A DNA stretch of 64,000 bases from Escherichia coli (GTDB lineage Bacteria; Pseudomonadota; Gammaproteobacteria; Enterobacterales; Enterobacteriaceae): assembly GCF_009931435.1 (NCBI RefSeq), contig NZ_CP043414.1. The stretch is one strand, 5' to 3'. Shown piece by piece: positions 61,346 through 62,223 of the stretch (its first letter is position 1; every line of letters starts with the position of its first letter). The notes below the pieces were generated by a model, which worked only from the letters and a program-made list of their open reading frames with translations, did no database searches and was not told where the DNA came from. A program made the translations under genes and the position numbers.

Positions 61346-61497
61346 ATTACGCTCCTGATTGTTGCACTTAGTGTCTCTCTTCGAAGCGGATAAGTCAAAA
61401 ACATATATGACTTAACGAATATGTAAGTGTAGAGAAAGGTATAGGTGTGAATTAAGCGTTGGGTGTTCATTTGAAAGGAAGTCTGAATCAGGATGTA

Positions 61498-61579
61498 AAA
61501 AAACCGACTTTGCGTCGGTTTTTTACTCTTCAGCCAGAGTTGGTGGCTCTGGCTGGAGTGAGAATGCCCACATCTAACG
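61498..61579 (-). ncRNA. agrB: AgrB small RNA, antisense regulator of dinQ (approximate; agrA/agrB assignment from recalled K-12 spacing)
   Basis: Repeat copy ending in a bidirectional terminator (A7-ccgac...gtcgg-T6 at 61497-61524), about 152 bp from the arsR start; shares the ctctggc(t/a)ggagtgaga block with the dinQ leader. Confidence 0.5.
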
Positions 61580-61725
61580 GTTCAATACTATTAGCCAGTG
61601 GCTAACATTGCAAGCGTTAGCGATTTCTTCAGCTGGCGAAGGGACAGTTTGCTATACATGGTGGTGAAAGAGGATTGATATACTTTCATCGGGTCGCTGC
61701 CGTACCAAGCCTTGTCCGAATCCGG

Positions 61726-61810
61726 ACGTAAAAAAACCGACTTCGCGTCGGTTTTTTTACTCTTCAGCCCAGAGTTGGTGGCTCTGGCTGGAGTGAGATA
61801 GCCATCATCT
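61726..61810 (-). ncRNA. agrA: AgrA small RNA (approximate)
   Basis: Second repeat copy, about 232 bp from the first, with the same terminator palindrome (61729-61757). Confidence 0.5.
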
Positions 61811-61875
61811 AACACATCAATGCTAATACCATACTGAAACCATTGCAAGGACATGCTGGTTTTATAACCCGCAAG

Positions 61876-61895
61876 TACTGTATGATTATCCAGTT
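61876..61895. promoter_or_regulatory. LexA operator (SOS box) of dinQ
   Basis: TACTGTATGATTATCCAGTT, a CTGT-N8-CCAG SOS box, about 190 nt upstream of the dinQ start. Confidence 0.75.
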
Positions 61896-62086
61896 GGCTC
61901 TGAGGCATTTTCACTCTGGCAATGCGCATAAACGCTTTCAAAGTCCTGATCAGTGGTACGGGTGGTGCCGTTAACTGATGCTCTGGCAGGAGTGAGATTG
62001 CCCACATCTAACAATGAGGCATGCGCCGTGACAGGCAGTGGATGAGTAAGCGGATGCATTCTCACTCCATCGCATGGAGAAAACGG

Positions 62087-62170
62087 GTGATTGATAAAGC
62101 AATCATCGTTCTTGGGGCGTTAATTGCGCTGCTGGAACTGATCCGCTTCCTGCTTCAGCTTCTGAACTGA
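62087..62170 (+). CDS. dinQ: DinQ type I toxin peptide (27 aa, GTG start)
   Basis: GTG ATT GAT AAA GCA ATC ... AAC TGA encodes VIDKAIIVLGALIALLELIRFLLQLLN, matching DinQ as recalled. The six-frame track does not list it because it is under 60 aa. Confidence 0.8.
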   Translation: MIDKAIIVLGALIALLELIRFLLQLLN

Positions 62171-62187
62171 TAGCGGAAACGTAACTA

Positions 62188-62222
62188 AGGGCAAAGAGCA
62201 CACCACTCTTTGCCCTTTAACA
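62188..62222. terminator. Stem-loop between convergent dinQ and gor
   Basis: aagggcaaagag...ctctttgccctt palindrome between the two stop codons. Confidence 0.4.
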
Positions 62223-62223
62223 T

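What the first reader, a model, noticed from the sequence alone, without database searches (positions are those of the whole stretch)
61346..62223. dinQ/agrAB SOS-controlled type I toxin locus in the arsR-gor intergenic region
Two about 232-bp direct repeats, each ending in the same bidirectional terminator palindrome, sit upstream of a 27-aa GTG-initiated ORF that matches DinQ, with a LexA box (TACTGTATGATTATCCAGTT) upstream of it. A third partial repeat (ctctggcaggagtgagattgcccacatctaaca, about 61981-62013) lies inside the dinQ leader and is the likely target of the Agr antisense RNAs. The six-frame track misses dinQ because it is under 60 aa.
Basis: partly seen in the sequence, partly recalled or inferred. 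Interest (0 to 1): 0.4.

Follow-up and report, generated by a model that had tools for sequence, protein, structure and literature searches.

The report
Known dinQ/agrAB SOS toxin-antitoxin locus
This is the already characterised E. coli dinQ/agrAB locus, a DNA-damage-inducible 27-residue membrane toxin held in check by small antisense RNAs. It is ordinary, except that this strain carries a rare matched variant of the toxin-antitoxin pairing sequence.

Summary
Window 61346-62223 is the arsR-gor intergenic region of an E. coli chromosome. It holds the published type I toxin-antitoxin locus dinQ/agrAB (Weel-Sneve 2013, PMC3567139; Kristiansen 2016, PMC5066626).

- **sRNA genes.** Two minus-strand genes match Rfam AgrB (RF02891) at 90 and 90.7 bits.
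- **Toxin.** The 27-aa GTG ORF at 62087-62170 is identical to DinQ and matches NCBIfam NF041472.
- **Regulation.** The LexA box at 61876-61895 is identical to K-12. The third repeat, 61980-62011, is nucleotides +88 to +119 of the dinQ leader, the published AgrB target.

Corrections are minor. The repeated unit is about 136 nt (about 85% identical) at a spacing of 233-235 nt, not 232 nt of similarity.

Beyond the finding, an 8-nt core of the pairing region is hypervariable among Escherichia. In every sampled complete genome with an intact dinQ promoter, it matches one of that genome's own agr copies. Which copy matches switches between lineages:

- arsR-proximal in K-12 and in this window;
- dinQ-proximal in roughly half of the sampled complete genomes.

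About 12% of sampled genomes carry a repeat-mediated 199-bp deletion that removes both promoters. I found no paper that reports this variation.

Verdict: known system, rare allele, low interest, with one modest new population-level lead.

The parts
61346..62223 (.). arsR-gor intergenic region holding the whole dinQ/agrAB locus
   Evidence: Flanking ORFs arsR 60992-61345(-) and gor 62224-63576(-). 95% alignment to the K-12 intergenic region. K-12 annotation.
61496..61577 (-). agrB-position sRNA gene (arsR-proximal). The RNA starts UUAGAU at 61577 and runs to the U-tract of the terminator. It is the predicted cognate antitoxin in this strain (30/32 complementary to the dinQ leader).
   Evidence: Rfam RF02891 90.0 bits, 61495-61577(-). 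Same 5' end as K-12 agrB b4713. Duplex -60.1 kcal/mol.
61585..61613 (-). agrB-position promoter: -35 TTGCAA (61608-61613), 17-nt spacer, -10 TAGTAT (61585-61590)
   Evidence: Read from the sequence upstream of the mapped 5' end. 'Consensus-like -10 and -35' are reported for K-12 (PMC3567139). It falls below the threshold of the generic scan.
61731..61812 (-). agrA-position sRNA gene (dinQ-proximal), 28/32 complementary to the dinQ leader
   Evidence: Rfam RF02891 90.7 bits, 61728-61812(-). Same 5' end as K-12 agrA b4712. Duplex -50.1 kcal/mol.
61820..61848 (-). agrA-position promoter: -35 TTGCAA (61843-61848), 17-nt spacer, -10 TAGCAT (61820-61825)
   Evidence: Sequence upstream of the 5' end.
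61495..61524 (-). Rho-independent terminator hairpin of the agrB-position sRNA (palindrome with A-run and T-run, so hairpin plus U-tract on either strand)
   Evidence: Rfam structure line; fold.
61728..61760 (-). Rho-independent terminator hairpin of the agrA-position sRNA
   Evidence: Inverted repeat I2, 14/14. Rfam structure. Fold.
61650..61706 (-). Relic of a gor gene fragment between the two agr units (53 nt 83% identical to gor 62439-62491, same orientation)
   Evidence: D3; blastn E 2.5e-11; tblastn E 2e-05.
61876..61895 (+). LexA operator TACTGTATGATTATCCAGTT. It overlaps the dinQ -10 (TATGAT 61881-61886) and the transcription start.
   Evidence: Identical to K-12, where the heterology index is 4.83 (PMC3567139). 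Unique in the window, 0/100 shuffles.
61893..62222 (+). dinQ primary transcript (+1 = G61893, about 330 nt). The +44 processed 5' end would be at 61936.
   Evidence: +1 was placed by mapping the published numbering (SD = G184-G187, PMC5066626) onto SD GGAG 62076-62079, with no indels against K-12. The length equals the ~330 nt seen on Northern blots.
61908..61920 (+). Switch element 1 (+16..+28, UUUUCACUCUGGC). It pairs with element 2 in the inert +1 mRNA.
61980..62011 (+). Agr target (+88..+119), the third copy of the repeat. It contains switch element 2 (61986-61998) and the hypervariable 8-nt core (61998-62005, TTGCCCAC).
62059..62079 (+). Switch elements 3 (62059-62070) and 4 (62074-62079): the hairpin that sequesters the Shine-Dalgarno GGAG (62076-62079)
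   Evidence: (SD paired in the +1 fold, P(unpaired) 0.07) and 75.
62087..62170 (+). dinQ coding sequence, GTG start, 27 aa plus stop
62187..62217 (.). Terminator hairpin shared by the convergent genes dinQ and gor
   Evidence: Inverted repeat I6, 12/12. Terminator scan. PMC3567139.

Best explanation
This is the chromosomal type I toxin-antitoxin locus dinQ/agrAB of Escherichia coli.

Mechanism, as established in K-12:
- LexA bound at 61876-61895 represses the dinQ promoter. DNA damage derepresses it.
- The ~330-nt primary mRNA starts at 61893 and cannot be translated. Its 5' end pairs with +94..+120, and the Shine-Dalgarno sequence is held in a hairpin (62059-62079).
- Removal of the first 43 nt frees element 2 (61986-61998) to pair with element 3. 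This opens the ribosome binding site, and the 27-aa inner-membrane peptide DinQ is made. DinQ depolarises the membrane and lowers ATP.
- A constitutively made ~82-nt antisense sRNA from the opposite strand pairs its 5' 32 nt with +88..+119. This re-closes the Shine-Dalgarno hairpin and makes the duplex a substrate for RNase III.

Basis. The presence, order, spacing and sequence of every element are shown here for this window. The regulation and toxicity are taken from the K-12 experiments. That the arsR-proximal copy (61496-61577) is the main antitoxin in this strain is inferred: it is 30/32 complementary (-60.1 kcal/mol), against 28/32 (-50.1 kcal/mol) for the dinQ-proximal copy.
For: - Rfam AgrB on both units at 90.7 and 90.0 bits.
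- NCBIfam toxin_DinQ at 54 bits, cut-off 30.
- DinQ protein identical to K-12.
- The K-12 reference annotates dinQ, agrA and agrB in the same arrangement, with 95% alignment across the region.
- The LexA box is identical to K-12 and unique in the window.
- The four switch elements are present, and the predicted +1 fold reproduces the published 5' lock and Shine-Dalgarno hairpin in both alleles.
- Peptide frame under purifying selection: 7 synonymous against 1 non-synonymous polymorphic site over 72 loci.
- The pairing core co-varies between toxin leader and antitoxin across Escherichia alleles and in distant dinQ-like loci.
- Experimental basis in K-12: PMC3567139 and PMC5066626.
Against: - There is no expression, SOS-induction or toxicity evidence for this particular strain.
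- The minimum-free-energy fold of the +44 form did not show an open Shine-Dalgarno sequence in the window allele (P(unpaired) 0.04) and barely did so in K-12 (0.20). The activating half of the switch is therefore not reproduced by simple folding.
- The element 1:2 duplex is weaker here than in K-12 (-13.6 against -19.7 kcal/mol), although the whole arm is similar (-26.0 against -27.3).
- The two sRNA copies differ less in complementarity here (30/32 against 28/32) than in K-12 (30/31 against 25/31), so which copy is the cognate one is less clear-cut.
Confidence: 0.95

Rival explanations
1. It is the same locus, but in this lineage the dinQ-proximal (agrA-position) copy, or both copies redundantly, is the working antitoxin rather than the arsR-proximal copy alone.
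For: The agrA-position copy has only 4 mismatches in 32 nt and -50.1 kcal/mol here. In K-12 it has 6 in 31 and -44.1 kcal/mol. In many other E. coli the agrA-position copy is clearly the better match.
Against: The arsR-proximal copy is the better match in this window (30/32, -60.1 kcal/mol). Its 8-nt core differs from the target at one position, against three for the other copy.
Confidence: 0.25
2. The repeats are only duplicated terminators or selfish intergenic repeat elements, and the complementarity to the dinQ leader has no regulatory meaning.
For: The palindromes look like generic bidirectional terminators. The generic promoter scan found no promoter for the sRNAs.
Against: - The hits match a curated sRNA model at more than twice the gathering score.
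- K-12 Northern blots and primer extension show both RNAs, and the agrB deletion has a phenotype.
- The pairing core co-varies with the target across alleles. Own-pair duplexes average -59.0 kcal/mol, against -53.8 +/- 1.4 for permuted pairs, and 0 of 20,000 permutations reached the observed value.
- Matched cores are also seen at dinQ-like loci in other genera.
Confidence: 0.02
3. The product of the locus is the longer 49-aa ATG ORF (62021-62170), not the 27-aa GTG peptide.
For: An in-frame ATG ORF of 49 aa exists. It was the original annotation candidate.
Against: [quoted passage not shown] The Shine-Dalgarno GGAG lies 7 nt upstream of the GTG. The ATG lies inside the structured leader. NCBIfam and RefSeq model the 27-aa product.
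Confidence: 0.03

Closest known systems
dinQ/agrAB of E. coli K-12 (b4613, b4712, b4713; Weel-Sneve et al. 2013; Kristiansen et al. 2016)
   Same: Same position between arsR and gor, and the same gene order and orientation. The DinQ peptide, LexA box, Shine-Dalgarno hairpin and switch elements 1, 3 and 4 are identical. There are two tandem Agr sRNA genes with the same 5' ends and terminators.
   Different: The intergenic region is only 95% identical, and the 1-kb stretch around it is 91% identical. The 8-nt core of the pairing region is TTGCCCAC (dinQ) with ATGCCCAC (agrB position), where K-12 has GAGTTCTT in both. The C96-to-A change weakens the element 1:2 duplex. Only 12 of 5,422 matching complete genomes are at least 99% identical to this window over the 1-kb stretch 61300-62300.
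tisB/istR-1 of E. coli
   Same: It is LexA-repressed. The primary mRNA is inert and is activated by 5' processing (+42 against +44). The antisense sRNA is divergently transcribed, trans-encoded but adjacent, and triggers RNase III cleavage. The toxin is a small membrane peptide (PMC5066626).
   Different: The sequences are unrelated. tisB uses a ribosome standby site, whereas dinQ uses a four-element switch. tisB has no tandem second sRNA copy with a different pairing core.
dinQ-like (dql) genes of Enterobacteriaceae (Kristiansen et al. 2016; T1TAdb)
   Same: The 5' UTR architecture and the GGAGTGAGA...ATCTAAC target frame are shared. An Rfam AgrB hit lies about 197 nt upstream, with a core matching its own target.
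   Different: The peptide differs (for example MINLLIIVLRAVVACANALIAVLELIRELID). There is no canonical LexA box at the same position. The genomic contexts differ and there is a single sRNA copy.

Membership tests
DinQ toxin (NCBIfam NF041472, equivalog) | Peptide matches the DinQ profile above the curated cut-off | tested here: met
   54 bits against a cut-off of 30, E 1.4e-14. Identical to WP_001295215.1.
DinQ toxin (NCBIfam NF041472, equivalog) | 27-codon frame with GTG start and Shine-Dalgarno sequence, conserved as coding sequence in relatives | tested here: met
   GGAG 62076-62079 lies 7 nt before GTG 62087. 7 synonymous against 1 non-synonymous polymorphic site in 72 loci. The peptide is identical in E. 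albertii and E. whittamii.
DinQ toxin (NCBIfam NF041472, equivalog) | Toxic inner-membrane peptide that depolarises the membrane | not testable with these tools
   Shown only for K-12 (PMC3567139). The peptide here is identical.
SOS regulon member | LexA operator overlapping the promoter | tested here: met
   TACTGTATGATTATCCAGTT at 61876-61895 is identical to the K-12 operator (heterology index 4.83 in PMC3567139) and overlaps the -10 and +1.
SOS regulon member | Induction by DNA damage and LexA binding | not testable with these tools
   No expression data for this strain.
AgrB sRNA family (Rfam RF02891) | Match to the covariance model above the gathering score, full length | tested here: met
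   61728-61812(-) at 90.7 bits and 61495-61577(-) at 90.0 bits, gathering score 40, model positions 1-84 of 84.
AgrB sRNA family (Rfam RF02891) | The 5' ~32 nt are antisense to the dinQ 5' UTR at +88..+119 | tested here: met
   30/32 (arsR-proximal copy) and 28/32 (dinQ-proximal copy). Duplexes of -60.1 and -50.1 kcal/mol.
AgrB sRNA family (Rfam RF02891) | Own promoter and Rho-independent terminator, transcribed divergently from dinQ | tested here: met
   TTGCAA-17-TAG(T/C)AT upstream of both 5' ends, and a terminator hairpin with U-tract. The promoters are read by eye and fall below the generic scan threshold.
dinQ mRNA structural switch (Kristiansen 2016) | Four elements able to form mutually exclusive 1:2, 2:3 and 3:4 pairings | tested here: met
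   Elements lie at 61908-61920, 61986-61998, 62059-62070 and 62074-62079. Duplex energies are -13.6, -16.7 and -6.9 kcal/mol. The +1 fold shows the 5' lock and the closed Shine-Dalgarno hairpin.
dinQ mRNA structural switch (Kristiansen 2016) | The +44 form has an open Shine-Dalgarno sequence | tested here: inconclusive
   The MFE and ensemble folds keep the Shine-Dalgarno sequence mostly paired in the window allele (P(unpaired) 0.04) and only slightly open in K-12 (0.20). The published evidence is SHAPE probing, not folding.
Type I toxin-antitoxin system | Small hydrophobic toxin plus an antisense RNA antitoxin that acts on the toxin mRNA | tested here: met
   All sequence components are present. 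Functional proof comes from K-12 only.

The most novel reading that the evidence does not exclude
The 8 nt between GGAGTGAGA and ATCTAAC in the Agr-dinQ duplex act as a fast-evolving specificity code. At least four core classes are found in Escherichia: GAGTTCTT, AT(G/A)CCATT, TAGTCGTC and (A/T)TGCCCAC.

Every sampled complete genome with an intact dinQ promoter keeps one agr copy matched to its own dinQ core. The matched copy sits at the arsR-proximal 'agrB' position in some lineages (K-12, this window). In roughly half of sampled complete genomes it sits at the dinQ-proximal 'agrA' position. If so, 'AgrA is a degenerate, non-functional copy' holds only for K-12-like strains.

Recombination or gene conversion among the three repeats would both reassign the cognate antitoxin and, in about 12% of sampled genomes, delete the promoters outright. 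The window allele looks like the intact form from which that deletion allele arose. I found no report of this in the held literature.
Probability: 0.45. Interest if true: 0.45.

Novelty: already known. Interest (0 to 1): 0.2.

Why it matters
As given, the finding adds nothing new. It correctly re-identifies a published SOS-regulated type I toxin-antitoxin locus that a six-frame ORF track misses.

The side result could matter modestly. Natural, matched variation in the pairing core gives in-vivo covariation support for the AgrB-dinQ interaction site. It also suggests that the 'spare' AgrA copy is the real antitoxin in many E. coli lineages, and that the locus is repeatedly remodelled or inactivated by recombination between its own repeats. 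This affects how dinQ/agr is annotated outside K-12, and how K-12 results on persistence and DNA-damage tolerance are extended to clinical lineages.

Tried and rejected
- **Generic promoter/terminator scan.** It found none of the three real promoters or the two sRNA terminators. The terminator stems absorb the T-run, and the promoters score 8/12. It is uninformative here.
- **MFE folding of the +44 mRNA.** It did not reproduce the published open Shine-Dalgarno state, so I do not use it to judge the switch.
- **Metagenome contigs as a population sample.**
  - Ten full-length contigs paired a K-12-type dinQ core with only a non-matching agr copy. For the eight that also carry the TAGCCATC agrA core, represented by L037, no complete genome among 5,426 has that structure. 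The best hits to L037 are all two-piece alignments spanning 901 bp. I treat these as collapsed assemblies of the tandem repeat. L022 and L060, with an ATGCCATC copy, were not checked separately.
  - The mismatched haplotype L038 is not reproduced in its closest complete genome and is probably a chimera.
  - These contigs were excluded from the co-variation argument.
- **More gor-derived sequence around the relic.** Similarity stops sharply at about 61650 and 61706. The 'tandem duplication reaching into gor, then internal deletion' history therefore remains an idea only.
- **Rfam.** It has no model hit for the dinQ leader at E up to 1.
- **Second, weak LexA operator.** It is reported for K-12 with a heterology index of 13.82, but I could not place it because the figure is not held. 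The window differs from K-12 at two bases just upstream of the main box.

Full report
**1. What is in the sequence**

The finding's coordinates are exactly the intergenic region between arsR (60992-61345, minus strand) and gor (62224-63576, minus strand).

Two stretches, 61481-61614 and 61714-61849, are direct repeats at about 85% identity with a spacing of 233-235 nt. Each contains the palindrome GTAAAAAAACCGACTT(T/C)GCGTCGGTTTTTT, at 61495-61524 and 61728-61760. The remaining ~99 nt of each period are not similar to each other. The repeated unit is therefore about 136 nt, not 232 nt.

A third, 33-nt copy of the inner part of the repeat lies at 61980-62012. It is 94% identical to the first copy and 88% identical to the second.

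The 27-codon GTG ORF is at 62087-62170 and reads VIDKAIIVLGALIALLELIRFLLQLLN. The LexA-type box TACTGTATGATTATCCAGTT is at 61876-61895. The pattern TACTGT-N8-CCAGT occurs once in the 64-kb window and in none of 100 shuffles. The looser pattern CTGT-N9-CAG is no commoner than chance (9 found, 5.8 expected).

**2. Identification**

- Rfam's AgrB model (RF02891) matches both repeat units on the minus strand over its full length. Scores are 90.7 bits (61728-61812) and 90.0 bits (61495-61577), against a gathering score of 40.
- NCBIfam's equivalog model for DinQ scores 54 bits, against a cut-off of 30.
- The 1-kb stretch matches 5,422 of 5,426 complete E. coli genomes, always on the chromosome, with dinQ, gorA and arsR annotated under the match.
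- The K-12 reference record annotates gor, dinQ (opposite strand), agrA, agrB and arsR in this order. The window is the reverse complement of that arrangement.
- The window aligns to K-12 across the intergenic region at 95%. The sRNA 5' ends (UUAGAU...) coincide with the K-12 gene starts.
- DinQ is the same RefSeq protein, WP_001295215.1, in K-12 and in strain 2020CK-00188, which is 100% identical to the window over 61300-62300, the 1-kb stretch searched.

**3. Mechanism and mapping onto the window**

The locus has been worked out experimentally in K-12.

- Weel-Sneve et al. 2013 (PMC3567139) showed that dinQ has a LexA operator (heterology index 4.83). It gives a ~330-nt primary transcript and a translatable +44 form. 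It encodes a toxic 27-aa inner-membrane peptide started at GTG.
- The same paper showed that two constitutive sRNAs, AgrA and AgrB, are antisense to the leader, and that only AgrB counteracts toxicity.
- Kristiansen et al. 2016 (PMC5066626) showed that four leader elements form mutually exclusive pairings. AgrB binding to G88-A119 re-closes the Shine-Dalgarno hairpin and triggers RNase III cleavage.

There are no indels against K-12 between the start site and the Shine-Dalgarno sequence. The published numbering therefore maps directly onto the window:

| Element | Window coordinates |
|---|---|
| +1 | G61893 |
| Element 1 | 61908-61920 |
| +44 | 61936 |
| Agr target | 61980-62011 |
| Element 2 | 61986-61998 |
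| Element 3 | 62059-62070 |
| Element 4 and Shine-Dalgarno | 62074-62079 |
| dinQ CDS | 62087-62170 |
| Terminator shared with gor | 62187-62217 |

The distance from 61893 to about 62222 is 330 nt, the published transcript size.

Folding the +1 RNA reproduces the 5' lock and the closed Shine-Dalgarno hairpin in both the window and the K-12 alleles. In the window, the C96-to-A change weakens the 1:2 duplex (-13.6 against -19.7 kcal/mol). The new core, UGCC, pairs with GGCA near the 5' end, so the whole arm is about as stable as in K-12 (-26.0 against -27.3). The open state of the +44 form was not reproduced by folding, so that step rests on the published SHAPE data.

The sRNA promoters read TTGCAA-17-TAGTAT (61585-61613) and TTGCAA-17-TAGCAT (61820-61848) on the minus strand.

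**4. The peptide frame**

Over 72 loci collected here there are 11 distinct coding sequences. They carry 7 synonymous polymorphic sites and 1 non-synonymous site (L15Q). The non-synonymous change lies in an allele that has lost its promoter. The peptide is identical in E. albertii, E. whittamii and another Escherichia species.

**5. What is unusual about this copy**

Only 12 of the 5,422 matching complete genomes are at least 99% identical to the window here, and most are 90-95% identical. The differences from K-12 are concentrated in an 8-nt core between GGAGTGAGA and ATCTAAC. They occur in parallel in the dinQ leader and in the arsR-proximal sRNA gene:

| | dinQ leader core | arsR-proximal copy | dinQ-proximal copy |
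|---|---|---|---|
| K-12 | GAGTTCTT | GAGTTCTT | TAGCCATC |
| Window | TTGCCCAC | ATGCCCAC | TAGCCATC |

**6. Population follow-up**

I took the complete genomes listed at even steps down the ranking. I fetched 23 of the 25 rows, plus one extra genome, and read the three cores in each.

Every genome with an intact dinQ promoter has one agr copy within 3 mismatches in 33 nt of its own target. Where a second copy is present, it has 4-9 mismatches. Which position is matched varies:

- The arsR-proximal copy is matched for core GAGTTCTT (7 rows, including K-12) and for (A/T)TGCCCAC (2 rows, including the strain identical to the window).
- The dinQ-proximal copy is matched for AT(G/A)CCATT (9 fetched rows, three of them single-copy loci) and for TAGTCGTC (3 rows, plus the extra genome, E. 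albertii and E. whittamii).

Predicted duplexes are -53 to -67 kcal/mol for the matched copy. In the E. coli genomes that have a second copy, that copy gives -41 to -53 kcal/mol. In E. whittamii the two copies are equal, at about -59 kcal/mol. Over 13 distinct haplotypes the mean own-pair energy is -59.0. Shuffling the agr sets between haplotypes gives -53.8 +/- 1.4, and 0 of 20,000 permutations reached the observed value.

Several of the remaining 'mismatches' are G-U wobbles in the RNA duplex; this is read directly from the sequences.

dinQ-like loci in Serratia and Pantoea and on unassigned enterobacterial contigs each have an Rfam AgrB hit close upstream. Where the distance was measured, at the three Pantoea-type loci, it is 197 nt. 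In each locus the core of the hit equals that of its own target or differs from it by one wobble.

Caveats:
- The haplotypes are related by descent.
- The sample is small.
- Gene conversion alone could create matches without selection.

In favour of selection:
- Single-copy genomes all kept the matched copy.
- No complete genome has the 'K-12 target with only the unmatched copy' structure that appears in collapsed metagenome assemblies.

**7. A dead allele**

Three of the 25 evenly spaced rows have 61% coverage of the query. The two I fetched have the sRNA terminator directly upstream of the dinQ-position repeat. This is a clean 199-bp deletion with its crossover inside the core (TAGC|CCAC). 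It removes the agr promoter, the LexA box and the dinQ promoter. Seven metagenome contigs show the same junction, and an eighth (L035) has the same kind of fusion with a GAGTTCTT core.

The hybrid core is what a crossover between a window-type dinQ-proximal agr copy and a window-type dinQ core would give. This window may therefore represent the intact parent form. That is inference.

**8. Literature check**

- The K-12 paper calls AgrA 'partly degenerated' and apparently non-functional.
- T1TAdb notes that some strains have the AgrA paralogue, and it picks whichever predicted antisense RNA binds best.
- A 2024 BLAST-based survey of type I systems mentions dinQ only in passing.
- Two searches of the held library found no description of matched core alleles, of the positional switch, or of the deletion allele. 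This is absence from a limited library, not proof of novelty.

**9. Verdict**

The system is already known, and this is a rare allele of it. Interest is low (0.2). The population-level co-variation and positional switch of the cognate antitoxin form a modest lead that a full-genome-set computation and a few deletions could settle.

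Noticed in passing
window 1-2296: A tandem array of a 484-bp unit, at least 4.7 copies and cut by the window start, 95% matches. It has five Rfam rdlD antitoxin hits (57-122, 540-605, 1024-1089, 1508-1573, 1991-2056, minus strand). Each unit also has a 35-aa Ldr-type ORF (for example MTLAELGMAFWHDLAAPVIAGILASLIVNWLNKRK). This is a second type I toxin-antitoxin locus, amplified, next to a large ORF at 2299-3978(-). From memory, K-12 has a single ldrD/rdlD copy at the corresponding place; I did not check this.
   Followed up: partly
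window 61650-61706: A 53-57-nt relic of gor lies between the two agr units, in gor's orientation. It is 83% identical to gor 62439-62491 (blastn E 2.5e-11), and its translation aligns with Gor residues ~351-397. Its right edge abuts the left edge of the second repeat unit. This would fit an old tandem duplication that reached into gor, followed by an internal deletion. Similarity stops sharply on both sides, so the history is unproven.
   Followed up: partly
window ~61591-61929 (-): RefSeq for the strain identical to the window annotates a 112-aa 'hypothetical protein' (WP_162754263.1) on the minus strand. It runs across the agrA-position sRNA gene, the gor relic and the dinQ promoter. Neither agr sRNA gene is annotated in the PGAP records that were displayed. 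The ORF is probably spurious.
   Followed up: no
L009 1600-1790, L077; metagenome loci L023, L024, L029, L041, L048, L057, L063: A 199-bp deletion allele of the locus in other E. coli. Recombination between an agr repeat and the dinQ-leader repeat removes the agr promoter, the LexA box and the dinQ promoter, leaving a promoterless but mostly intact dinQ ORF. One copy carries L15Q. It accounts for 3 of 25 evenly spaced complete genomes, all in a context where arsR and arsB are also missing.
   Followed up: yes
L010 (E. coli EC12) 1361-2443: An IS481-family transposase is inserted between the single agr copy and dinQ. This moves the sRNA gene about 1.3 kb away from its target.
   Followed up: no
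L015, L016, L019, L021, L045, L055: dinQ-like loci or Agr-like sRNAs outside Escherichia: Serratia sp. H1w, Citrobacter amalonaticus, Candidatus Pantoea gossypiicola and unassigned enterobacterial contigs. Each has an Rfam AgrB hit at 42-77 bits. Except at the Citrobacter locus, the 8-nt core of the hit equals that of its own target or differs from it by one wobble. In the Citrobacter locus no target was found within 900 nt.
   Followed up: partly
L013, L014: Two contigs in the species-representative genome collection are labelled 'uncultured bacterium' and 'Lachnospiraceae bacterium' (metagenome-assembled genomes). They carry an Escherichia-type dinQ/agr locus with the identical DinQ peptide. 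This is probably bin contamination.
   Followed up: no
L022, L037, L039, L040, L047, L049, L054, L056, L038: Short-read metagenome assemblies of this locus often lack one agr unit or combine cores that no complete genome combines. The 136-nt tandem repeat seems to be collapsed or mis-joined by assemblers, so such contigs are unsafe for copy-number or haplotype calls here.
   Followed up: yes
window 61843-61848: The -35 hexamer of the agrA-position promoter, TTGCAA, is its own reverse complement. It lies 45-50 nt upstream of the divergent dinQ start, so the two divergent promoters are packed back to back in about 80 nt.
   Followed up: no
window 37150-37263, 43043-43114, 52786-52817: Other Rfam hits in the window: GadY (150 bits), ES205 sRNA (105 bits) and the shuA/chuA 5' UTR thermoregulator (60.1 bits). 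The last shows that this strain carries the chu haem-uptake cluster between the gad region and arsRBC.
   Followed up: no
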